This document shows positions 28,547 through 46,303 of a stretch of DNA of 64,000 nt, in pieces. Made by a program: the position numbers and the translations under genes. The DNA is taken from IMG/VR virus record IMGVR_UViG_3300008110_007313; one strand, written 5' to 3'. Origin of the DNA: a virus (Duplodnaviria > Caudoviricetes). Position 1 is the stretch's first letter. Every line of letters starts with the position of its first letter. The notes below the pieces were generated by a model. The model was not told the DNA's origin, searched no databases, and was given only the letters and a program-made list of their open reading frames with translations.

Positions 28547-29329
28547 CTAGCGATGTTTTTGGATGGCTTCGGCTAAATCACTGCTAATTTTATCCGGAAT
28601 CTGGGCCAGTAGTCGTACCATCATATCACCTTTTCTGCCCTGTTGATCTCGTAGTCCTTGCTCTCGTAGTCGCAACTGTGTGCCCGGCTGACAACGTGCC
28701 GGCACACGAATGGTTAATTTTTCACCGTAGATATTTTCTACCACAATGTCACCGCCCAGTATCAAATCCCAAACCACCACACGATGATCTCTAGTGAGAT
28801 TCAGGGCCTGTCTGTGCCACACAGAATCTGGATGTATTCTAAAACTAATTACCAAATCTTGGCCACCAGGTCCCACACCCGGATATTGAACATTGTCACC
28901 ATCATTGAGTCCCAAGGGAATGTCAATTTCCAAAGTTTGATTGCCTTGAGCACTGTTTACTGCAATGGTTTTGCGTCCGCCTTGGGCAACATCTTGTAGA
29001 CGCACCCACAGACTCATACGAAGATGATTGCGTCTGGGATGTTGTCCAAATCCTGCGCCGCCGAACATCTGACTAAAAATGTCATTGATGTTAACATGTC
29101 CGCTGTCGCTGAATCCACTGAAGCCGTTGAACTGTGGTCTGGGATTGTCGTATTCACTTCGTTTCTGGTCATCGCTGAGTACAGCATAGGCAGCTTGTAC
29201 TTCTTGGAATCGAGCCTTGTCTCCTCCTTTGTCAGGATGGTGCTGGCTGGCTAACCGACGATAGGCCTTCTTGATTTCATCTTGACTGGCACCGCGAGAT
29301 ACTCCCAATGTTGCATAGTGGTCTGTCAT
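28547..29329 (-). CDS. DnaJ/CbpA-type co-chaperone (J-domain plus C-terminal domain, no zinc finger)
   Basis: DHYATLGV...[18 protein letters not shown] (HPD motif); start ATG 29329. Confidence 0.9.
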
Positions 29330-29856
29330 TGTTCTTCTAACATTTTTTTGACTTCTAAACACTTGTCACATTTGCCGCAGTTCTTATAAAAAAAGCAACT
29401 GCTGACCAAGGGTTTGACATCATCGGGAATCTGATTCCATTGTTCCCGTTTGCTCATGTGTTCAAAAGGACGATAAAATTTTACATTAGGATGCAACAGC
29501 GTCCAGGCCTCAAACACGTTGGCTGGTCTTGCAGGTCCGTCTATATCGCCGCTGTGTCGACCTGCCCAGACTTCAGTGATTTTTGGATCCTTGGCACACC
29601 ATAGATTGGCCACGCTAATAAAGGTTCTAATTTGATGCACAAAGTGATAGGGTTCAGGTTCAATGGGAATGTGTATGCGTGCATAATTTATTTTGAACCC
29701 AAGTTTCTCTGCAATTTTTTCAGCAGATTCTTTCCTAAATGTAGGTATGCCGTAGGGATAGGTAGGTTCGATTGTGACCACAGTATCCATGGGATCTGCT
29801 TCACACAGTAGCAAGGTGCTTTCTACACCGCCGCTGAAAAGAATAAGTCTGCTCAT
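29326..29856 (-). CDS. QueC-like PP-loop ATPase
   Basis: [11 protein letters not shown]-loop and C-terminal [14 protein letters not shown] Zn-site pattern; shorter than canonical QueC. Confidence 0.6.
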
Positions 29857-30103: not shown

Positions 30104-30676
30104 TTATCTTTCTGGATAAAAGTCAGGCTGTGGTGGAGCAAGTTTGCCCCCAAAGCCTGCGGTTACTTGGCCGGATGCGCCAAAACTGTTGCCCATAGGT
30201 GGTGTTGCACCATATCCGGGTTGATATCCACCGGTGCTGCCGCCCATGACGGGGGTTGTGCCCCAGGAGTTTGTGCCTGGTGAATTATACGAGCCGCCGG
30301 GTTGGCTGAGACCTGGCGCAGGTTGGCCAAATGTTGTTGTGACGCTTTGTGATACGGGTTGTAGTGCATTTGATCCTCCTGATACGCCAGCCATTTTTTC
30401 TTGTCCGCGACTCCATGCACTGACACCCAGTACTGCACCCATGGCCACGTGGAACAGACCACCGCCTTGCAGTGTTATAGGTGCCCATTGACGGAACGCA
30501 TCGTTTTGTACAGCAGTTTCCCAGAATTGAACAACTGTGAACATTATTGGGAAAAACACAAAGTCAAACAAGCAGGCAGTCATGTACATGATGGCCATCA
30601 TGGGACGCCACTTCTTGGTCATCCAGTCTTCTTCGCTCTTGGTTATCTTGCTTGGGGGTAATTCTTTTTTGCTCAC
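30104..30676 (-). CDS. putative holin (3TM-like) with Gly/Pro-rich tail
   Basis: KWRPMMAIMYMTACLFDFVFFP and GGLFHVAMGAVLGVSAWSRGQEK hydrophobic segments; near the endolysin. Confidence 0.6.
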   Translation of the reverse strand: MSKKELPPSKITKSEEDWMTKKWRPMMAIMYMTACLFDFVFFPIMFTVVQFWETAVQNDAFRQWAPITLQGGGLFHVAMGAVLGVSAWSRGQEKMAGVSGGSNALQPVSQSVTTTFGQPAPGLSQPGGSYNSPGTNSWGTTPVMGGSTGGYQPGYGATPPMGNSFGASGQVTAGFGGKLAPPQPDFYPER

Positions 30677-33086: not shown

Positions 33087-33430
33087 TTTTTCTTTGTGGC
33101 CACGTTGATGGCTGCTCCTTTGCGATTGGCGTCAGGATCTTGACGACGTTTGCGAGCCGCTGCACTTGCACGGCCTTTTTTGCCCAGGGCATGTGCCTTG
33201 GCTTGTGGTAAACACTTGGGTTTGCCTTCTGATTCTGAATCACGAGCACAGTCTCCACGGATTTTGCCGTCTGGACCAAATCGCACCCATTTTTGTTTGA
33301 ACCACTTGCGCAGATCTTCTTCAAGGTCTGCTTCGCTGATCTTTTTGCAACTGCCTGGTGAGTATTCAGCTGTGCCTGGCACACGCCGATAGCCCTTCCA
33401 ACAAGATTCCAGTATTTCTCTGTATCTCAT
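33083..33430 (-). CDS. small basic modular protein
   Basis: Leader MRYREILES; CWKGYRRVPG and EDLRKWFKQKWV...KPKCLP modules. Confidence 0.7.
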   Translation of the reverse strand: MRYREILESCWKGYRRVPGTAEYSPGSCKKISEADLEEDLRKWFKQKWVRFGPDGKIRGDCARDSESEGKPKCLPQAKAHALGKKGRASAAARKRRQDPDANRKGAAINVATKKK

Positions 33431-33699
33431 CGGGTTGCACTTTCAAAAATTTTTCTTTGTTCGCCGTACCAGTCTTGCCAGCCGTCTCTGCGAGCCGAAC
33501 ATTCATAGTAGGTGGCATAATTTTTCACAACCACACGTAGAAGATCAGTGATTGCAGTTTCAGTGGGCAACATCTGAGTCAACTCTGGGCAGCTTTTCAT
33601 CAGCTCCGGCGGTGCATCAGGAAATTTTTGCTTGACTGGGACTACAGTAGAGCAGGCTGACAAGATCACGACAGTCAATAACAAAGCCATGCTTTTCAT
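33427..33699 (-). CDS. putative o-spanin lipoprotein (Rz1-like)
   Basis: Lipobox ILSAC followed by Pro-rich FPDAPPELMKSCP; adjacent to an Rz-like gene. Confidence 0.7.
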   Translation of the reverse strand: MKSMALLLTVVILSACSTVVPVKQKFPDAPPELMKSCPELTQMLPTETAITDLLRVVVKNYATYYECSARRDGWQDWYGEQRKIFESATR

Positions 33700-34208
33700 T
33701 TTTTGTCTCCCTGTGCTGCACGATTCAGAATGGCCGCTGCATTGTGAGCATCTATCACCGCAGCTGGTACAGGGCAGTTTTCAATGTATTTGATAACTTC
33801 CTCACGCTTGATTCTTTCAGGGCCTTCTACCATTACTTCTTTGGTGTTCCATTTATCAATATACTTGATAATTTCTTCGCCTTTTTCTCGCACCACTCGG
33901 GTTTTTTCTACCACACGAGTTTGCACTTCCACATTGGTCTTGGCACTGCGAGCCTCAGCTTCGGCAACCTTTAGTTCCATTTCGGCCACACGCTGTCGCC
34001 ATTCAGATTCTACTGAATAGCCACCACGTAGGTACACGCCCAGCGCCAACAGCACAATGCCAGCAATCTTGAACGGCAGTTGATACTGCCAAATTACAGG
34101 TATGCGATGCGCAAACAGGCCAGCCACGGCCAAGATCACACCCAGCACAAGTATAGAATTAACTGCCCATAAAATGGCAGTGTCGGGGAGAAAATGTAAG
34201 ATCCACAT
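33696..34208 (-). CDS. putative i-spanin (Rz-like)
   Basis: N-terminal hydrophobic helices, then coiled coil and C-terminal Cys (CPVPAAVIDAHNAAA). Confidence 0.65.
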   Translation of the reverse strand: MWILHFLPDTAILWAVNSILVLGVILAVAGLFAHRIPVIWQYQLPFKIAGIVLLALGVYLRGGYSVESEWRQRVAEMELKVAEAEARSAKTNVEVQTRVVEKTRVVREKGEEIIKYIDKWNTKEVMVEGPERIKREEVIKYIENCPVPAAVIDAHNAAAILNRAAQGDKK

Positions 34209-34213
34209 GCCTG

Positions 34214-34219
34214 TATTTA
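34214..34219 (-). promoter_or_regulatory. T4-like late promoter core TAAATA
   Basis: ACTAAATACAGGCATG, identical to the site at 24604-24609. Confidence 0.65.
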
Positions 34220-34795
34220 GTAACCAAAATCAAGATTACGTTGCTTTAGCTTTTGCCAGGTCTGTGTGTATGTTGCAAACTCAGTGTGTTGGTACTGTTC
34301 TAAATTTTCTCGCATGAAACTAGAAAAATCATCCTGGCCAGTGTCAATGCAGAACACCTGATCTGCCCACCAATCTACCGTGGTTTGATTGTAGTATTGC
34401 CAGTGATGTTCCAGCGCCATGTTCATGGTATGATCTAACCCATGCTCTAGGATTTCTGGCCGATGCAGGTGTTGAGTCCAGACTTGCCAGCAGCGATTAT
34501 AACTAGGCGCAAAATGACTTTTGATTTTGATAATTTGTCGACCTGGAAAATGCTGAAATAGCAGTTGGGTGTCAAGGCAGTGTGTAAGCTCAATGAGATT
34601 GTGTCTTGACTTCAGTTGAGTTGACTCTTTGGGGTAGGGCCTGGTATCGGGATCCTGGTAGTTGATTTCTGGAGTTGGGTCTGGCCCTGAGTGACTGTGT
34701 GCGTGTTGGTTGTGACGCCATTGTTTTTGCAGAAGATACCTGGCCAGTCGATTGCCCCCACTGCCGGGAAAATAAGCAATTACGCAGGCATTCAT
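34217..34795 (-). CDS. hypothetical protein with sulfotransferase/P-loop-like N-terminus
   Basis: Likely start ATG 34795 (MNACVIAYFPGSGGNRLARYL), coupled to the upstream stop. Confidence 0.55.
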   Translation of the reverse strand: MNACVIAYFPGSGGNRLARYLLQKQWRHNQHAHSHSGPDPTPEINYQDPDTRPYPKESTQLKSRHNLIELTHCLDTQLLFQHFPGRQIIKIKSHFAPSYNRCWQVWTQHLHRPEILEHGLDHTMNMALEHHWQYYNQTTVDWWADQVFCIDTGQDDFSSFMRENLEQYQHTEFATYTQTWQKLKQRNLDFGY

Positions 34796-35868
34796 GAGTA
34801 GTAGTAAACAGACTGATCGCGACTGGGAAACAGATCCACAGGCGAATCTTCTCTGCGTATGTCCAGAGTCAAACAATGAAGTCCGCCATCCCAGAATGTT
34901 CTAGTACGAAATGGCAAGCTGTGCGCAGTGATTCCAAATTTTTCCAAGGCTCTAAATACAGCTTCGTTTTCTCCCAGCATGAGCACATTTTTTTCGTCAA
35001 CAACCAAGCAGTTGACTTCAAAGTAAGTTTCTGTATAATTGCCCACCCAGTCTAGTGCATGTTTGATCACATGATCATTAAATGCTTGATTATTACTAGC
35101 GCCGGCAAGCCAAAATTTACCATTGGCTCCAGGAGTATTTCTTCCATGTTGATTGTTTGAAAACTCCGGCTTTGCAATATTGATCTGTTCCCAGCCAGGA
35201 AATGTTCGATCATAGTCTGAAAAATAACGGCTGGTCAGCAGTAGCCCGGGCTTGATTGCAGCAAAACATGCGTCAACATGCCCGCCGTTGTTCAACAGAT
35301 GCAAACGACTGTCAGCAAAATACGGTTTTATTTTTTGATCAAATTCTTGTTGCAATAGATCAATTTGACTGTTTCGTTGTACGTGAAACACATCAAGATA
35401 AAGATCCTTGCCGACTCTCACAGTGTTTGCGCCGCTGAGACTGCCCAGGTGTTCGAGTCTGATTTCTGGTATCACCTGTGATCCAGCATCAGCAGCATAA
35501 CGGTCAAGTGCTGGCTGCCAAGCTTGGGCCATCCATTCAGGATAAAACAATTTGTTTCCGTGCGCTAAAAAATGATCTCTGGGGGTAATCTGCGGCTTCA
35601 GCAAGGTAGTGGGATGATGCGGATGCCCGTCGGGAGATATGAAATCATCTATTTTGTGATACTCAGGCCGCACTACATCGACTCCAAATTCCTGGAGTTT
35701 ACTCTGGATCGTGTTGAGATCTGCCTGAGTTTTTTCAGTGAGTTCATAAAACACATCTCGAACCTGAGACTCAAGGTGATCATAAAAATGGCTGGGGTAA
35801 ACATCTCCCAGCCATACTTCTTTCAGCTTGCCCCAGTTGGTAAAACTATTAACCAGTGGTGTTGACAT
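34792..35868 (-). CDS. amidinotransferase (pentein superfamily, glycine/inosamine amidinotransferase-like)
   Basis: NWGKLKEVWLG, PRD, GHVDACF, FEVNCLVVDEK and WDGGLHCLTLDIRR (catalytic Cys) motifs. Confidence 0.85.
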   Translation of the reverse strand: MSTPLVNSFTNWGKLKEVWLGDVYPSHFYDHLESQVRDVFYELTEKTQADLNTIQSKLQEFGVDVVRPEYHKIDDFISPDGHPHHPTTLLKPQITPRDHFLAHGNKLFYPEWMAQAWQPALDRYAADAGSQVIPEIRLEHLGSLSGANTVRVGKDLYLDVFHVQRNSQIDLLQQEFDQKIKPYFADSRLHLLNNGGHVDACFAAIKPGLLLTSRYFSDYDRTFPGWEQINIAKPEFSNNQHGRNTPGANGKFWLAGASNNQAFNDHVIKHALDWVGNYTETYFEVNCLVVDEKNVLMLGENEAVFRALEKFGITAHSLPFRTRTFWDGGLHCLTLDIRREDSPVDLFPSRDQSVYYYS

Positions 35869-36526
35869 CGGAATTCCTTTTCAATGTATTTAAGAATTCC
35901 TGTGTTTGGGCGGTTTTAATTCCAGTAACTTGCAGTGTGGCTCTAGGCACATGCCCTGCATTGGCTGTGGCATGTGGTACATTGACCCAATCAAATGTTG
36001 AAACATCGCCTGCACGCCAACCAGTCCAGGCATAGTTGCCATAACTCCAGAAATGTCCTTGCTGCCAGTCTGTGAGCTGTACAAAATAGCGTACCACTTG
36101 GCTGGGATCAGCCGGCATCCATTTTTCCAGCTTGTCTAAGTGCAAGTTCCACACTTGTCCAGGATGTTGCACATGTATGCGGGCCATGCTTTTTTCCAAG
36201 CCAAATTGATCAGCAATGCGCTGAAACACCGGCGCTAGATCATAAGTCAAGTTTGTGACCACGTAGTCGCGCCCATAGCCTTGCTGTTCTAGGTCATGGT
36301 CTTCTTGATCGTACTCTTCTGTGGCACGTTTTAATGGATCTGACTCGCGACCTCGAGTACGCCAGGTCACAGATTTTGATACAGCGACCGCAGCAGCTAG
36401 TTCCGCAGTCCAGTCTGGCTCGATGTGTCCTAGGTGTTGCACAGTGTCCCAGCGTGGATCCTGTTGTGTAGTATCAAAATGATATTGGCTGCGGGCTCGG
36501 GTTATTTCCCAATTTGATTGTGTCAT
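35849..36526 (-). CDS. cupin / 2OG-Fe(II) oxygenase-like protein
   Basis: HVQHPGQVWNLHLDK (HxD) and distal VPHATANAG..RATLQVTG. Confidence 0.6.
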   Translation of the reverse strand: MTQSNWEITRARSQYHFDTTQQDPRWDTVQHLGHIEPDWTAELAAAVAVSKSVTWRTRGRESDPLKRATEEYDQEDHDLEQQGYGRDYVVTNLTYDLAPVFQRIADQFGLEKSMARIHVQHPGQVWNLHLDKLEKWMPADPSQVVRYFVQLTDWQQGHFWSYGNYAWTGWRAGDVSTFDWVNVPHATANAGHVPRATLQVTGIKTAQTQEFLNTLKRNSDVNTTG

Positions 36527-37161
36527 ATTACTGTTACCTCAATATCGTTGTTGGTGTAATTTTGTCTGTAACTGCTGTCTGGCCAGGCAATGTTTAATGC
36601 ATTACATAATTCCAAATTAGTGCGCACCTGTTTTGATCCGCGGTGTTTGTAATTCCACATAGTGTCAGTGATACCTTGATTTTGTTTCTTGATACACGTG
36701 GCCATGTGCTTTAAATCTTGATAATATTCACGGTATAATGGATACGTTATATCAAAATGGCCACATTTTACCCACCAACCCAGGCAAGAATCATTGCTGC
36801 GATGAACCAACACAATGGCACAATCCATGAACTGTTCACGCAAGTGTCGGATATTTTGTTCATACGAGAAGATGTGGCTTTTGATGATTCTAACTCCTTG
36901 GGAGTCTTTGCTAAACGGGTAATCAAAGCTGGCCTCCAATTGTTGTCGGTCGAGTATGGTGAGATCCTCGGGCAAAGGACAAGCCATGCCAGGATCCCAA
37001 TATGCACCCAAATGCATAAGTTCTCGCTGACCTGATGCATCGTGGTAATACGTCCACTCGTCTCTGTAGTCTGAACGATCTATCGATGGCGAGTAATAGA
37101 TGTTTTTTACAACACTGCTCCATTTTGAGCCTGGAGCGCCGGCTACAAAGACATATTTCAT
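36523..37161 (-). CDS. P-loop / sulfotransferase-like protein
   Basis: MKYVFVAGAPGSKWSSV, RIIKSH and IVLVHR motifs; start ATG 37161. Confidence 0.55.
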   Translation of the reverse strand: MKYVFVAGAPGSKWSSVVKNIYYSPSIDRSDYRDEWTYYHDASGQRELMHLGAYWDPGMACPLPEDLTILDRQQLEASFDYPFSKDSQGVRIIKSHIFSYEQNIRHLREQFMDCAIVLVHRSNDSCLGWWVKCGHFDITYPLYREYYQDLKHMATCIKKQNQGITDTMWNYKHRGSKQVRTNLELCNALNIAWPDSSYRQNYTNNDIEVTVI

Positions 37162-38120
37162 TTGTTGGGAGTAATTCGTCGAGCAATAGGTTGCCAAGTT
37201 TGTTGCAGTCGAGCCATGCTTGCTCGCACTCCGGCAGCTGAATGTTCTGTAGGTGTGATATACATCATGTTTTCACGAAACTTGACAGCGGCTTCAGCTG
37301 ATTGAATAGCAGGCACAAACTGATCACGGTACCATGCTTGAATTTCAGGGGGTGTGCCTGGTGGCAATACCATGTTCCAGCAACCGTGAATGCTGAGTCC
37401 AGGCGCTGCTTTGCTCATCAAAGGAATATGCTCTAGCCCAGGCAAGGCACGTGTGTCTGCAATGCCAATGAACTTGAGACGTCCTGCTTGCACATGTGGA
37501 TAGCCCACAGCCACTGGTGTTACACCAAACTCTACGTGCCCGCCCATGACATCTAGTAGAGCCTGTGCTGGGCCTTTGTACATGGCAGTTTGAAGGTTGT
37601 CGCTACCTGCTACACTTACTTTGTCTACAAGATATTCCACTGCCAGCTTGTGTCCACCACCGCCAATGGCCACAGTCATTCGTTGTCGATTACGAATGGC
37701 TGCAACAAATTCTTCTGGTGTGTTGATCTTGCTTGACGGATGTGCCCAAAATGCCAGGGGTGATCTAGCAATGTTGGCAATGGGTTCCAGATCCATGGGG
37801 TTGTACTTGATCATGTCCTTGAACCAGATTTCGGGAGTGACCCAGTTTGATTGGCAAGCAGGCACACTTATGGTGTGACCATCACGTGGTGTTGTGACAA
37901 AATGATTGATAGCAATGTTGCCGTCAGCTCCTGGGCGATATTCAGAATTGAATTTGGCTCCAGTTTTACGTTCCACAATGTCTGCAACGATTCTAAACGA
38001 GATTTCGTTGCCAGCACCAGGACCATTGGGGAATATCACCGTAACAGGTTTAGTGGGCTGCCAAGCCAGCGCAACAGTAGGCGCCAAAACTAAGGCTGCA
38101 AGTAATTTTTTCATTGACAT
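37158..38120 (-). CDS. Bug/TctC family tripartite tricarboxylate transporter substrate-binding protein
   Basis: Signal peptide; WQPTKPVTVIFPNGPGAG, YRPGADGNIA, YKGPAQALLDVMGGHV and LPPGTPPEI motifs. Confidence 0.85.
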   Translation of the reverse strand: MSMKKLLAALVLAPTVALAWQPTKPVTVIFPNGPGAGNEISFRIVADIVERKTGAKFNSEYRPGADGNIAINHFVTTPRDGHTISVPACQSNWVTPEIWFKDMIKYNPMDLEPIANIARSPLAFWAHPSSKINTPEEFVAAIRNRQRMTVAIGGGGHKLAVEYLVDKVSVAGSDNLQTAMYKGPAQALLDVMGGHVEFGVTPVAVGYPHVQAGRLKFIGIADTRALPGLEHIPLMSKAAPGLSIHGCWNMVLPPGTPPEIQAWYRDQFVPAIQSAEAAVKFRENMMYITPTEHSAAGVRASMARLQQTWQPIARRITPNK

Positions 38121-38195
38121 AGGGTTCCTTAAATAGTATACTTGATTTACAGCAACAGAGCAAAAATTTTTATGGTCTGTTGTAAAATTCTCTTT

Positions 38196-38203
38196 TATTT
38201 ATA
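38196..38203 (-). promoter_or_regulatory. full T4 late consensus TATAAATA
   Basis: tatttata on the plus strand, about 75 nt upstream of the Bug/TctC operon start. Confidence 0.5.
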
Positions 38204-38212
38204 AAATTTTTT

Positions 38213-38941
38213 ATGAACACCAAAATTTTTAATCTAATCACAAAAAATTTGCAACAGGCATTTGCTTTGCCCAAGTATGCAGATATTGTGATCAACGCAG
38301 ACACTGTAGTCAACACACTGCCTTGGACCCCGGCACGCTACTCAAAGTTCAAAGACGCTGTGGAAGCAGAACTTAGCTTGCCCTGCGAGTATCGTGGCAC
38401 CCTGCGTGAAATTACAGACGACCTAAGCGAACGCTACACACATAGGTTTTTTGCTGAGATTTGGAAACCACGCACAGGCGACTATGAACACACGGGCTGG
38501 GAATTGGCTGACGAAGTTAACAAGCTGAATCCAGAGAAAGTATTAGATGTAGGCTGTGGATATCATCCTTTTAAAGGACGCATACACAATCTAATTGGTA
38601 TTGATCCCTACAACAACTGTGCTGACTATGAAGTGGACATCTTGGACTACAAGGTCAAGCCCGAAAGCTACGATGTTATTATTGCCCTGGGATCAATCAA
38701 CTTTAACTCACGAGATGAAATTGAATCACGATTCGCGCACTGTGTGACGTTGTTGAAATCCGGCGGCCGGTTCTTTTTACGAGCCAATCCAGGGATAACA
38801 CACAAGACAGGGCCTTATGTGGAAATCTTTAATTGGACTTTTGAAGTTGTAAATGAATTTGCCGAAAAGTACAATTTAAATCTAGACACATTCAAGAAAG
38901 ATGCCAATGATAGATTGTATTTTGTCTATACCAAACGATGA
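38213..38941 (+). CDS. class I SAM-dependent methyltransferase
   Basis: VLDVGCG motif I, IGID, YDVII..GSINF and LLKSGG motifs. Confidence 0.85.
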   Translation: MNTKIFNLITKNLQQAFALPKYADIVINADTVVNTLPWTPARYSKFKDAVEAELSLPCEYRGTLREITDDLSERYTHRFFAEIWKPRTGDYEHTGWELADEVNKLNPEKVLDVGCGYHPFKGRIHNLIGIDPYNNCADYEVDILDYKVKPESYDVIIALGSINFNSRDEIESRFAHCVTLLKSGGRFFLRANPGITHKTGPYVEIFNWTFEVVNEFAEKYNLNLDTFKKDANDRLYFVYTKR

Positions 38942-45604: not shown

Positions 45605-46303
45605 TTAACACACTAGTTTTTTGAGAACACTGTTTTTTTCAGTCCAGGTTGTAAACGTTTGATCAAACTTATCAAAATCTCTAATAGGTGTTTGTGTTAA
45701 TTGCTGTACTACATTGATCAAGTTCTGCCTGTTAAAAAAATCAGCCAATGCAATGGCTTGCATGTTGGGCACGGTTTTCCAGATATGAACCTGCTTTAAC
45801 CACAGTGTAGAAAAAAATTGTCGAGCATTGTGCTCAGTTACTCGTTGTTGAGCCCAAACGGGCAAAGTTTGTTTGTGAACCTCAACAAAATGCATTAGGC
45901 TGTTTTGATGCCGTTTGGCAATAAACACATCGATGATACCAACTGCGGCCGACTCAGGAAAGTCTATGTAATAAAATTTCTCAGCCAGTTCTACAAACCA
46001 ATCAAAATAATAGTGCGAATTCTCAACAGGATCAACTTGAGACCAATCTAAGATGCTAGGAACTACATTTTTGTAATCTACACAGATATCTCTAAAATAA
46101 CGTCGGTTGTGTAACACCAACCCAGTGTCTGTAATATTACATTCTACAGAAGTATTCAAATCGAGTTGTTGGAGGCACAGTGTTTTTAAAAAATCACCCC
46201 CAGTTCCTCCCACATAACAAATCATTGATTGAACACGGTGCATAAAAATTTGTATAAAAATTGATGTGTTTTTTCGCCAATGTGCGTTCGCGAAACATCC
46301 CAA
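45605..46303 (-). CDS. hypothetical protein with P-loop-like N-terminus (start uncertain)
   Basis: MICYVGGTGGDFLKTL motif near the probable start. Confidence 0.55.
   Translation of the reverse strand: MGCFANAHWRKNTSIFIQIFMHRVQSMICYVGGTGGDFLKTLCLQQLDLNTSVECNITDTGLVLHNRRYFRDICVDYKNVVPSILDWSQVDPVENSHYYFDWFVELAEKFYYIDFPESAAVGIIDVFIAKRHQNSLMHFVEVHKQTLPVWAQQRVTEHNARQFFSTLWLKQVHIWKTVPNMQAIALADFFNRQNLINVVQQLTQTPIRDFDKFDQTFTTWTEKNSVLKKLVC

What the first reader, a model, noticed from the sequence alone, without database searches (positions are those of the whole stretch)
34217..38941. Candidate small-molecule pathway: amidinotransferase, oxygenase-like, P-loop enzymes, binding protein and divergent methyltransferase
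Seen: five overlapping minus-strand genes (Bug/TctC, P-loop protein, HxD...H oxygenase-like, amidinotransferase, second P-loop-like protein) face a divergent SAM methyltransferase across a 92-nt AT-rich gap. Established: amidinotransferases move the amidino group of arginine to an amine acceptor, and with a methyltransferase this is the logic of creatine synthesis (AGAT/GAMT) and of several guanidino natural products. Inference: the phage makes or modifies a guanidino compound, or guanidinylates a surface glycan or base. I know of no characterised phage pathway like this.
Basis: partly seen in the sequence, partly recalled or inferred. Interest (0 to 1): 0.7.

Follow-up and report, generated by a model that had tools for sequence, protein, structure and literature searches.

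The report
Phage solute-uptake and tailoring enzyme operon
A giant phage carries a tight operon joining a secreted nutrient-binding protein to an oxygenase, two sulfotransferase-like proteins, a methyltransferase and an amidinotransferase; it looks like two separate gene modules fused together, and their product is unknown.

Summary
The six genes are real and sit as described. Five minus-strand genes are translationally coupled. A 92-nt, 76% AT gap separates them from a divergent methyltransferase.

Most family calls hold:
- B is a StrB1/AGAT-type amidinotransferase (profile against PDB, E 1e-36).
- C is an Fe(II)/2OG oxygenase.
- E is a secreted TctC-family binding protein.
- F is a small class I methyltransferase.
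- The two "P-loop" proteins (D, A) look like sulfotransferase-fold proteins, not NTPases.

The single creatine-like pathway is not supported. Comparison shows two modules.
- **Module 1 (F | E-D-C):** it recurs in phage contigs that also encode the TctA permease. 134 IMG/VR contigs carry TctA. Of 80 fetched, F is in 77, a TctC-like protein in 76, D in 69, C in 48, and B in only 6.
- **Module 2 (B-A):** B occurs in 462 viral contigs, mostly with other partners. Sister phages place an APS-kinase fusion just upstream of B.

My best reading (about 0.4) is a phage-boosted uptake of a carboxylate solute, followed by hydroxylation, sulfation, methylation and, in this lineage, amidination. Substrate and product are unknown.

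This scan has already noted similar amidinotransferase/sulfotransferase cassettes on other phage DNA. The link to the TTT uptake system was not in the notes I saw.

The parts
38213..38941 (+). F: small class I SAM-dependent methyltransferase (242 aa), divergent from the operon; part of module 1
   Evidence: Motif I is VLDVGCGY, with conserved GIDPYN, ALGSINF and RxNPG blocks across 19 relatives. Pfam and NCBIfam hits are weak and below cut-off. The PDB profile search gives only generic class I hits. F is found in 77 of 80 phage TctA loci. A sigma70-like site at 38114-38142 points toward it.
38121..38212 (.). 92-nt AT-rich divergent intergenic region
   Evidence: 76% A+T. TTGACA-17-TATACT lies on + at 38114-38142. 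TATAAATA lies on - at 38196-38203, 76 nt upstream of E. That motif has only 2 copies in the window and is not enriched.
37158..38120 (-). E: secreted TctC/Bug-family solute-binding protein of a tripartite tricarboxylate transporter (320 aa)
   Evidence: Pfam TctC, E 2.2e-22, 80 bits against a cut-off of 27. Full-length matches to solved TctC/Bug binding proteins (TphC, BugE, AdpC, Bug27, BugD), E about 2e-20. N-terminal signal-peptide-like segment MSMKKLLAALVLAPTVALA.
36523..37161 (-). D: sulfotransferase-fold protein (about 212 aa from ATG 37161; the longest ORF starts at 37197); part of module 1
   Evidence: AlphaFold model pLDDT 87.7. Best structural matches are tyrosylprotein sulfotransferases, Z 11.0/10.6/10.5, then other sulfotransferases at Z 9.1-9.5 and UMP kinase at Z 9.0. 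The Atlas feature search and my model's fold search lead to viral clusters automatically named sulfotransferase. Invariant residues are the PGS[KR]WS loop, the His of KSH, Arg and WW. There is no Pfam or PDB sequence hit. D is in 69 of 80 phage TctA loci.
35849..36526 (-). C: Fe(II)/2-oxoglutarate oxygenase (225 aa); frequent member of module 1
   Evidence: Invariant H129, D131, H185 and R195 in 9 relatives. The profile hits the 2OG alkylsulfatase AtsK at E 7e-4 over the distal His...Arg segment. Model pLDDT 72. The best fold match is free L-proline 3-hydroxylase 1e5r (Z 13.8, 22% identity), then proline cis-4-hydroxylase (Z 12.1) and a viral prolyl hydroxylase (Z 11.9). C is in 48 of 80 TctA loci.
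34792..35868 (-). B: StrB1/AGAT-family amidinotransferase (358 aa); core of module 2
   Evidence: phmmer against AGAT, SxtG, HsvA and StrB1 gives E about 1e-7. A family profile gives StrB1 1.1e-36 and AGAT 1.2e-35; no deiminase or DDAH appeared at E 0.01 or better. H197, D199 and C332 are invariant; D98 is nearly so. The AGAT D254 / StrB1 D179 column is Ser145 here and is variable. There are 462 relatives in IMG/VR.
34217..34795 (-). A: second sulfotransferase-fold-like protein (about 192 aa from ATG 34795; the longest ORF starts at 34876), coupled to B by an ATGA overlap
   Evidence: The Atlas's own low-confidence model (pTM 0.53) matches sulfotransferase clusters at TM about 0.6. It has a conserved PG[SA]GGxR loop, a THC motif and an IIKIKSH motif. 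It lies directly next to B in the window, L001, L005, L083/84 and L022/23. It is not detectably homologous to D by profile comparison.

Best explanation
The region is one translationally coupled operon of a T4-like jumbo phage, built from two separable auxiliary modules.

**Module 1 (F | E-D-C)** is a solute-uptake and tailoring unit. E is exported to the periplasm. I infer that it docks on a TTT permease: the host's TctAB here, or a phage-encoded TctA in many other phages. That would bring in a carboxylate-bearing small molecule. I also infer that the solute, or a metabolite made from it, is hydroxylated by the oxygenase C, esterified (most likely sulfated from PAPS) by D, and methylated by F.

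**Module 2 (B-A)** adds a StrB1/AGAT-type amidinotransferase. It would move an amidino group, presumably from arginine, onto an amine. It is paired with a second sulfotransferase-like protein. Sister phages place an APS-kinase / HxGH-nucleotidyltransferase fusion in front of B, which would supply the sulfate donor.

In this lineage the two modules are fused into one operon. They probably act on one substrate series and give a hydroxylated, sulfated, methylated, guanidino-bearing small molecule.

**Shown:** gene identities and folds, the coupling, and the two co-conservation patterns. **Inferred:** every chemical step, the order of steps, the substrate and the benefit to the phage.
For: **Family and fold assignments**
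- E: Pfam and PDB matches.
- C: HxD...H...R motif and fold, Z 13.8 to a free-proline hydroxylase.
- D: sulfotransferase fold, Z 11.0.
- B: StrB1 at 1e-36.
- F: class I motifs.

**Coupling**
- ATGA overlaps at E/D, D/C and B/A.

**Module 1 linkage**
- 134 IMG/VR contigs encode a TctA relative.
- Of 80 fetched, F is in 77, a signal-peptide TctC-like protein in 76, D in 69 and C in 48. The fixed order is TctA-TctC-D-(C)-F.
- Some loci add a small signal-peptide, beta-rich protein ending in Phe between TctA and the binding protein.
- This holds down to about 30-45% identity of D and F.

**Window lineage**
- It keeps the binding protein but has no TctA in 4 records that are 81-100% complete.
- From my own knowledge, this resembles cyanophage PstS working with the host's own transporter.

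**Sulfate donor**
- An APS-kinase domain (Pfam 3.5e-11; PDB 3.4e-6) fused to an HxGH nucleotidyltransferase lies directly upstream of B in L001, L003, L006 and L083/84.

**B beside sulfotransferase-like genes in separate lineages**
- D-B adjacency in L002, L005 and L058/60; A-B adjacency in five loci.

**B near TTT genes in further lineages**
- L011, L058/60, L138, L142, L144.

**A cellular parallel**
- In Actinomadura vinacea a D homologue (40% identity) lies back to back with a PF02274 guanidino-modifying enzyme.
- A sulfatase, a Sulfotransfer_3 protein, a B12 radical SAM enzyme and a methyltransferase lie nearby.
Against: - No substrate or product is identified, and nothing here shows catalysis.
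- D has no sequence-level match to any sulfotransferase family. The profile-profile match to Sulfotransfer_3 has only 7% probability.
- D's phosphate-binding loop is non-canonical, and P-loop kinases score within 2 Z units. D could be a kinase or use another donor.
- A's assignment rests on a low-confidence Atlas model.
- B lacks the third residue of the AGAT/StrB1 catalytic triad.
- The window itself has no APS kinase and no TctA.
- B and module 1 are mostly found apart. Their fusion here could be a mere neighbourhood in a variable island.
- C's best fold matches include protein prolyl hydroxylases, only about 2 Z units lower.
- D's best matches are protein tyrosine sulfotransferases, which fits a protein target as well.
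Confidence: 0.4

Rival explanations
1. First reader's model. All six genes form one pathway centred on the amidinotransferase. The divergent methyltransferase methylates the guanidino product, as in AGAT/GAMT creatine synthesis.
For: B is a genuine AGAT/StrB1-family protein. All six genes stay together in the window's own lineage: L001-L006 and L083-L086. In L058/60 F, C, D and B share one operon.
Against: F co-varies with TctA, TctC and D (77 of 80 loci) and not with B (6 of 80). Only 7 of 41 long B loci hold F. A complete phage record has the TctA gene of module 1 but no B. F shows only generic class I similarity. The model gives no role to the binding protein, the oxygenase or the two sulfotransferase-like proteins.
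Confidence: 0.1
2. Glycan or aminocyclitol tailoring. The enzymes build a guanidino- and sulfate-bearing sugar-like unit that ends up on the virion or the host envelope, as proposed for larger phage islands that hold the same amidinotransferase family.
For: - B's best solved relative is StrB1, which amidinates an inosamine phosphate.
- The kinase/nucleotidyltransferase fusion of sister phages could instead activate a sugar phosphate.
- In cyanophage S-SCSM2R the amidinotransferase lies beside KdsA/KdsB and a glycosyltransferase and was detected in purified virions (PMC12801897).
- Earlier scan notes read other islands this way (leads only).
Against: No glycosyltransferase, sugar aminotransferase, dehydratase or NDP-sugar enzyme lies in or next to this operon. 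The neighbours are spanins and coiled-coil proteins. A glycan model does not explain the tight linkage of D, C and F to a TTT permease and binding protein.
Confidence: 0.15
3. Protein or peptide modification. D sulfates tyrosines, C hydroxylates prolines or other residues, F methylates, and B converts ornithine or lysine side chains or N-termini. The targets would be phage or host proteins or a small peptide.
For: - D's three best structural matches are tyrosylprotein sulfotransferases (Z 10.5-11.0).
- C matches viral and cellular protein prolyl hydroxylases at Z 11-12.
- In other phages B's commonest neighbour (31 of 81 loci) resembles the C-terminal domain of arginyl-tRNA-protein transferase.
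- Amidinotransferase and a 2OG oxygenase were found in a cyanophage virion proteome (PMC12801897).
- The operon is contiguous with late lysis genes.
Against: C's top match is a free-amino-acid hydroxylase (Z 13.8, 22% identity). No precursor peptide or peptidase/exporter gene is present. The conserved pairing with a TTT binding protein and permease points to a small solute. Fold likeness does not fix the substrate class.
Confidence: 0.15
4. No shared pathway. These are independent auxiliary genes that sit side by side only because this part of the genome is a variable island where such genes accumulate.
For: - Insertions and losses occur between the genes in sister phages. L001 has extra genes and an apparently truncated D.
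- L002 and L005 have no intact C ORF (L002 keeps a 33% tblastn match), and L006 has two B copies.
- B and module 1 lie about 180 kb apart in one 300-kb phage record.
Against: ATGA translational coupling links the genes. The same order TctA-TctC-D-(C)-F recurs across about 130 contigs at low sequence identity. D-B and A-B adjacency recurs in separate lineages and in an actinomycete.
Confidence: 0.15
5. DNA or nucleotide hypermodification: the enzymes decorate phage DNA bases.
For: Jumbo and T4-like phages often modify DNA. A small PP-loop QueC-like gene lies 5 kb away. P-loop-like proteins take part in known thymidine hypermodification (my own knowledge).
Against: None of the proteins matches a known DNA-modifying family. 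C's fold matches are not led by TET/JBP or AlkB enzymes. A periplasmic binding protein and a permease have no place in DNA modification.
Confidence: 0.03

Closest known systems
StrB1 (L-arginine:inosamine-phosphate amidinotransferase) and AGAT, with SxtG and HsvA
   Same: B aligns over its full length by profile (E 1e-36 to 1e-33). It has the C-terminal GG-x-HC-x-T-x-D-x-x-R catalytic Cys motif, the H-x-D pair and the PRD aspartate.
   Different: - Identity is low, and Pfam's model does not reach E 0.01.
- The triad aspartate (AGAT D254, StrB1 D179) is Ser145 here and is not conserved in the phage family.
- The genomic partners differ from any known amidinotransferase pathway.
- The acceptor is unknown.
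Tailoring enzyme sets of the cylindrospermopsin (CyrA, CyrJ, CyrN, CyrI) and saxitoxin (SxtG, SxtN, SxtO) clusters (recalled from my own knowledge, not tested)
   Same: Both combine an amidinotransferase, a sulfotransferase, an adenylylsulfate kinase and an oxygenase. The APS kinase is present in sister phages.
   Different: There is no PKS, NRPS or other scaffold-building enzyme here. A periplasmic binding protein is present instead. Only SxtG was actually matched.
Phage-encoded PstS: a solute-binding protein as an auxiliary gene that works with the host's own transporter (my own knowledge)
   Same: A phage carries only the periplasmic binding component. No TctA is found in four sister records that are 81-100% complete. 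The binding protein would have to use the host permease.
   Different: The transporter family differs (TTT, not ABC). The gene is fused in an operon with tailoring enzymes. Many other phages also carry the permease.
Viral tctA reported as a putative auxiliary gene of unknown role (Roux et al. 2014, PMC4164917; review PMC6359870)
   Same: Phage contigs encode TctA, and its role is stated to be unknown.
   Different: Those passages, as read, do not describe the fixed linkage to a TctC-like protein, a sulfotransferase-fold protein, a 2OG oxygenase and a methyltransferase.
Radical SAM plus amidinotransferase cluster of Campylobacter phages CP220/CPt10 (Timms et al. 2010, PMC2853527)
   Same: Distant homologues of B (about 22% identity, E about 1e-6) lie in a variable phage gene cluster of unknown function.
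   Different: The neighbours there are radical SAM enzymes. No TTT component was among the features and neighbours examined there.
Tyrosylprotein sulfotransferases TPST1/2 and bacterial Stf / olefin-synthase sulfotransferase domains
   Same: These are D's best structural matches (Z 11.0-9.1 over about 165 residues). D has a His in a K-S-H motif and an Arg in the position of the 3'-phosphate-binding motif.
   Different: There is no significant sequence similarity. The loop reads P-G-S-[KR]-W-S and not P-[KR]-S-G-T-T. Kinases score nearly as well.

Membership tests
AGAT/StrB1 amidinotransferase family (guanidino-group modifying enzyme superfamily) | Full-length sequence similarity to solved amidinotransferases rather than to deiminases or DDAH | tested here: met
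   The family profile hits only StrB1 (1.1e-36), AGAT (1.2e-35), HsvA and SxtG at E 0.01 or better. The single sequence gives E about 1e-7.
AGAT/StrB1 amidinotransferase family (guanidino-group modifying enzyme superfamily) | Catalytic cysteine near the C-terminus (AGAT C407), with His (H303) and the two guanidinium-binding aspartates (D170, D305) | tested here: met
   C332, H197 and D199 are invariant and D98 nearly invariant in 25-74 relatives. They align to the AGAT and StrB1 positions.
AGAT/StrB1 amidinotransferase family (guanidino-group modifying enzyme superfamily) | Third triad residue Asp (AGAT D254, StrB1 D179) | tested here: not met
   The column is Ser145 in the window protein and is variable (S, N, C, P, A) across the phage family. 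No alternative acid could be located without model coordinates.
AGAT/StrB1 amidinotransferase family (guanidino-group modifying enzyme superfamily) | Amidino transfer from arginine to an amine acceptor | not testable with these tools
   This needs an enzyme assay.
PAPS-dependent sulfotransferases (D) | Sulfotransferase fold | tested here: met
   Model pLDDT 87.7. TPST1 scores Z 11.0 (rmsd 3.6, 167 aligned); five further sulfotransferases score Z 9.1-10.6. The best kinase scores Z 9.0.
PAPS-dependent sulfotransferases (D) | Canonical 5'-phosphosulfate-binding loop P-[KR]-[ST]-G-[ST]-[ST] and 3'-phosphate-binding Arg...Ser | tested here: inconclusive
   The loop is P-G-S-[KR]-W-S, and a nearly invariant Arg follows a beta strand. 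hhalign places K-S-H and the Arg in register with a Sulfotransfer_3 family, but at only 7% probability.
PAPS-dependent sulfotransferases (D) | Match to a curated sulfotransferase sequence family | tested here: not met
   No Pfam, NCBIfam, PHROG or PDB sequence hit. Only automatic names of Atlas clusters say sulfotransferase.
PAPS-dependent sulfotransferases (D) | PAPS supply encoded nearby | tested here: inconclusive
   An APS-kinase fusion lies in the same operon in sister phages L001, L003, L006 and L083/84. It is absent from this 64-kb window.
Fe(II)/2-oxoglutarate oxygenases (C) | HxD...H iron triad, an Arg about ten residues after the distal His, and the double-stranded beta-helix fold | tested here: met
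   H129, D131, H185 and R195 are invariant. AtsK is hit at E 7e-4 over the His...Arg segment. The fold scores Z 13.8 to proline 3-hydroxylase, and 66 chains score Z 8 or more; nearly all of the 50 listed are 2OG oxygenases.
TctC/Bug solute-binding proteins (E) | Pfam PF03401 above its cut-off, full-length similarity to solved members, and an export signal | tested here: met
   80 bits against a cut-off of 27. PDB E about 2e-20 over residues 18-284. The N-terminal hydrophobic signal was read from the sequence; no signal-peptide program was run.
Complete tripartite tricarboxylate transporter (TctABC) | Membrane subunits TctA and TctB encoded with the binding protein | tested here: not met
   No TctA in the window or in four sister records that are 81-100% complete. 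TctA is present in the marine and freshwater version of module 1.
Class I SAM-dependent methyltransferases (F) | Motif I (GxGxG-type SAM loop) and the Rossmann-like core | tested here: met
   VLDVGCGY with D112, G114, C115 and G116 invariant. Several class I Pfam models hit at E 4e-4 to 5e-3, all below their cut-offs. No structure was predicted.
   The PDB profile search (E up to 1) and the Pfam and NCBIfam scans list only generic class I enzymes. Absence from these lists does not exclude a distant relation.

The most novel reading that the evidence does not exclude
Module 1 (binding protein, sulfotransferase-fold protein, 2OG oxygenase, methyltransferase, with TctA in most carriers) is a widespread and almost phage-exclusive system. 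With it, phages would take up a specific environmental carboxylate and convert it inside the infected cell into a new sulfated and methylated metabolite. In this jumbo-phage lineage the metabolite would also be guanidinylated. The product would serve the infection itself, for example as a counter-ion for packaged DNA, an inhibitor of host or competitor functions, or a signal. That would be a virus-specific small-molecule pathway, not a copy of host metabolism.
Probability: 0.2. Interest if true: 0.8.

Novelty: new variant of a known kind. Interest (0 to 1): 0.6.

Why it matters
Phage auxiliary genes are usually read one at a time as copies of host metabolism. Here a solute-binding protein is locked to three tailoring enzymes in about 130 uncultured phage contigs, and in many of them a permease is part of the same block. 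The sulfotransferase-fold member is almost absent from cellular genomes: 8 hits among 185,579 species representatives, most of them on metagenome-assembled contigs that may be phage DNA.

That pattern suggests a phage-owned uptake-and-conversion pathway whose substrate nobody knows. It also gives a concrete context for two unexplained observations in the literature: viral tctA, and phage 'glycine amidinotransferase' genes. The binding protein offers an easy experimental handle, because ligand screening of a soluble periplasmic protein could name the substrate and make the rest of the pathway testable.

Tried and rejected
- **DNA similarity:** DNA-level search of the 5.2-kb block against 50,697 phage records found nothing. 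No whole genome is held for the window.
- **Family scans:** Pfam, PHROGs and NCBIfam left A, C and D unassigned, and gave B only one PHROG family of unknown function.
- **PDB sequence searches for D:** both the 8-sequence and the 26-sequence profile gave nothing usable.
- **Foldseek for D:** the PDB search was ambiguous between kinases and sulfotransferases. Only the exhaustive aligner separated them, and only slightly.
- **A and D as paralogues:** rejected at the sequence level (hhalign probability 1%).
- **A versus Sulfotransfer_3:** no signal.
- **T4-type late promoter TATAAATA as an enriched signal:** only 2 copies against 1.2 expected, so I make no claim about timing.
- **Exact-sequence look-up of the phage TctA:** not on record.
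- **Swiss-Prot fold search for C:** it added only generic PKHD, AspH and proline hydroxylase matches at TM 0.5 or less.
- **Literature:** searches for a described phage TTT or sulfotransferase module found none.
- **Not done:** I sent no complex prediction, because I do not claim that any two of these proteins bind. I did not predict B's structure, because model coordinates cannot be inspected here and the fold was already clear from sequence.

Full report
**Context.** The window is a piece of a large T4-like phage.
- It encodes tail-fibre-like proteins, a Clp-type ATPase, DnaJ, a clamp loader, PhoH and Pol III fragments.
- Its closest relatives in IMG/VR are contigs of 300-374 kb.
- No whole genome is held for it, and the block has no DNA-level match among deposited phages.

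**Observation.** The six ORFs are present as described.
- The junctions show ATGA stop/start overlaps at E/D, D/C and B/A, and a 20-nt overlap at C/B.
- The gap to the divergent gene is 92 nt and 76% A+T.
- The ATGA couplings appear only if D starts at ATG 37161 and A at ATG 34795. Relatives and Atlas records also begin there.
- Downstream of A the strand continues directly into two lysis-type genes. One is a membrane-anchored coiled-coil protein. The other is a small lipoprotein with an L-S-A-C lipobox. Together they look like an i-spanin/o-spanin pair, so the enzyme block ends at A.

**Gene identities.**
- **E** is a TctC/Bug-family periplasmic binding protein. Pfam gives 80 bits against a cut-off of 27. 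Solved homologues match at E about 2e-20. It has a signal-peptide-like N-terminus.
- **B** belongs to the StrB1/AGAT amidinotransferase family.
  - The single sequence hits AGAT, SxtG, HsvA and StrB1 at E about 1e-7.
  - A 25-member profile hits only these four enzymes, at 1e-36 to 1e-33 over the full length.
  - The catalytic Cys, the His-x-Asp pair and the PRD aspartate are conserved in the family.
  - The aspartate that completes the triad in AGAT and StrB1 is Ser145 here and is not conserved. This is a real departure whose consequence I cannot judge.
- **C** has invariant H129, D131, H185 and R195.
  - Its profile match to the 2OG alkylsulfatase AtsK is weak.
  - Its model has the double-stranded beta-helix fold (pLDDT 72).
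  - The best fold matches are free L-proline 3-hydroxylase (Z 13.8, 22% identity), proline cis-4-hydroxylase (Z 12.1) and protein prolyl hydroxylases (Z 11-12).
- **D** gives a confident model (pLDDT 87.7).
  - Its best matches are tyrosylprotein sulfotransferases (Z 11.0, 10.6, 10.5) and other sulfotransferases (Z 9.1-9.5). UMP kinase scores 9.0.
  - The Atlas searches agree.
  - No sequence method places D in a sulfotransferase family, and its phosphate-binding loop is unusual. 'Sulfotransferase-fold' is shown; 'PAPS-dependent sulfotransferase' is inferred.
- **A** is weaker still. A low-confidence Atlas model resembles sulfotransferases at TM about 0.6. A is not detectably related to D.
- **F** is a compact class I methyltransferase by its motifs. 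It has only sub-threshold, generic family hits.

**Co-conservation: two modules, not one pathway.**
- B has 462 relatives in IMG/VR. In the close lineage (B at 54-76% identity) the block F | E-D-C-...-B-(A) is kept, with insertions and losses.
- Outside that lineage B usually sits with other partners. Profile searches of 41 B loci of 15 kb or more find D in 5, F in 7, C in 6 and A in 3.
- The key clue came from L058/L060 and L079. There F, C, D and B lie beside a 491-aa TctA permease (Pfam 1.8e-87) and a 357-aa signal-peptide protein with a TctC-like N-terminus.
- Searching with that TctA found 134 viral contigs. In the 80 fetched, F is present in 77, the TctC-like protein in 76, D in 69, C in 48, and B in only 6.
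- The order TctA-TctC-D-(C)-F is fixed. Some loci add a small exported beta-rich protein ending in Phe, possibly an outer-membrane channel.
- F, E, D and C therefore form a module tied to TTT uptake. B and A are a second unit.
- At genome level, a 100%-complete 383-kb record holds TctA but no B. All five large B-bearing records tested hold D somewhere.
- The window's own lineage has no TctA in four records that are 81-100% complete, and none in the window. E would have to use a host permease.

**Links between the two modules.** They are not strangers.
- D lies immediately upstream of B in L002, L005 and L058/60. A lies immediately next to B in five loci of two lineages.
- L011 has B between two TctC genes, with a C homologue and another methyltransferase.
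- Sister phages insert, directly before B, a 262-aa fusion of an APS-kinase domain and an HxGH nucleotidyltransferase domain. This fits a local supply of the sulfate donor.
- The D family is nearly absent from 185,579 cellular species representatives. There are 8 hits, mostly on MAG contigs that may be phage DNA.
- The one hit in a cultured organism, Actinomadura vinacea, lies back to back with a PF02274 guanidino-modifying enzyme. A sulfatase, a Sulfotransfer_3 protein, a B12 radical SAM enzyme and a methyltransferase are nearby, next to conjugation genes.
- That guanidino enzyme is only a distant relative of B.

**Mechanism.** What is shown is a fixed genetic link between a periplasmic binding protein (often with its permease) and three cytoplasmic enzymes, plus a looser link to an amidinotransferase and sulfate-activation genes.
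- From this I infer uptake of a carboxylate solute, followed by hydroxylation, sulfation and methylation. In this lineage an amidino group would also be transferred.
- C's nearest structural relatives act on free imino acids, which suits a small carboxylate. The margin over protein hydroxylases is about 2 Z units.
- I put this reading at about 0.4.
None is excluded. The report sections list the evidence for each.

**Literature.**
- Viral tctA has been listed as a putative auxiliary gene of unknown role (PMC4164917, PMC6359870).
- Phage 'glycine amidinotransferase' genes were noted in Campylobacter phages beside radical SAM genes (PMC2853527).
- In cyanophage S-SCSM2R the amidinotransferase lies next to 2OG oxygenases, and the protein was detected in the virion proteome (PMC12801897).
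- I found no description of the TTT-linked module.
- Earlier notes of this scan describe amidinotransferase, sulfotransferase, APS-kinase and oxygenase cassettes on other phage DNA and read them as guanidino-sugar pathways. These are leads only. This window lacks the glycosyltransferases and aminotransferases on which that reading leans.

**Verdict.** The proposed single pathway is replaced by two fused modules. The more interesting one is an uncharacterised, widespread, phage-specific uptake-and-tailoring unit. Its function remains unproven.

Noticed in passing
window 33427-34208 (-): Directly downstream of gene A lie two lysis-type genes. One is a 170-aa protein with N-terminal membrane segments and a long charged helix. 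The other is a 90-aa lipoprotein with an L-S-A-C lipobox. They look like an i-spanin/o-spanin pair. A holin-like hit lies at 30104-30676.
   Followed up: partly
L083:7229-8017 (also L001:9210-10004, L003, L006): Sister phages carry, just upstream of the amidinotransferase, a 262-aa fusion of an APS-kinase-like P-loop domain and an HxGH (GRWQPWHAGH) nucleotidyltransferase domain. It may be a miniature PAPS-synthase-like enzyme. It is absent from this window.
   Followed up: partly
L087-L166 (e.g. L088:7247-11895, L147:8052-13500): About 130 IMG/VR phage contigs carry a fixed module: TctA, a divergent signal-peptide TctC-like protein (about 350 aa, no Pfam hit), a D-like protein, often a 2OG oxygenase, then an F-like methyltransferase. 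Some loci add a small exported beta-rich protein ending in Phe between TctA and the binding protein.
   Followed up: yes
L031:9302-9736, L045:8762-9259, L076:7358-7690: In other phages the amidinotransferase's commonest neighbours are three small proteins. One is a 144-aa protein whose Atlas relatives carry the C-terminal domain of arginyl-tRNA-protein transferase (31 of 81 loci). One is a 165-aa protein (32 of 81 loci; only a weak DUF6875 hit). One is a DUF6614 protein (14 loci). This hints at an arginine-related activity unrelated to module 1.
   Followed up: partly
L169:562-8684 (Actinomadura vinacea JCM 3325): A cultured actinomycete has a D homologue (40% identity) back to back with a PF02274 guanidino-modifying enzyme. 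A sulfatase, a Sulfotransfer_3 protein, a B12-binding radical SAM enzyme and a methyltransferase are nearby, next to a TraG-type coupling protein. This may be an uncharacterised biosynthetic cluster on a conjugative element.
   Followed up: partly
window 29326-29856 (-): A 176-aa protein has an SGG-x-x-S PP-loop motif at its N-terminus and a QueC-like C-terminal cysteine cluster (Pfam QueC, E 1.2e-5, partial). It lies next to DnaJ and a Clp-type ATPase, and is conserved at the same place in a sister contig (L085).
   Followed up: no
L001:5984-6481; L006:7459-8508 and 10001-11158; L079:6588-7667 and 9959-11236: The cluster is in flux among relatives. D appears truncated in L001. L006 and L079 each carry two amidinotransferase copies. 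L003 has two tandem D copies.
   Followed up: no
window 45605-46303 (-): A 232-aa ORF has an N-terminal Y-V-G-G-T-G-G loop that resembles the loop of gene A. A profile of the A family does not detect it, so homology is not shown.
   Followed up: yes
P0139 (Streptomyces sp., 603 aa): Among actinomycete relatives of the Actinomadura Sulfotransfer_3 protein, one is fused to a class I methyltransferase domain. This is another case of sulfotransferase-methyltransferase pairing.
   Followed up: no
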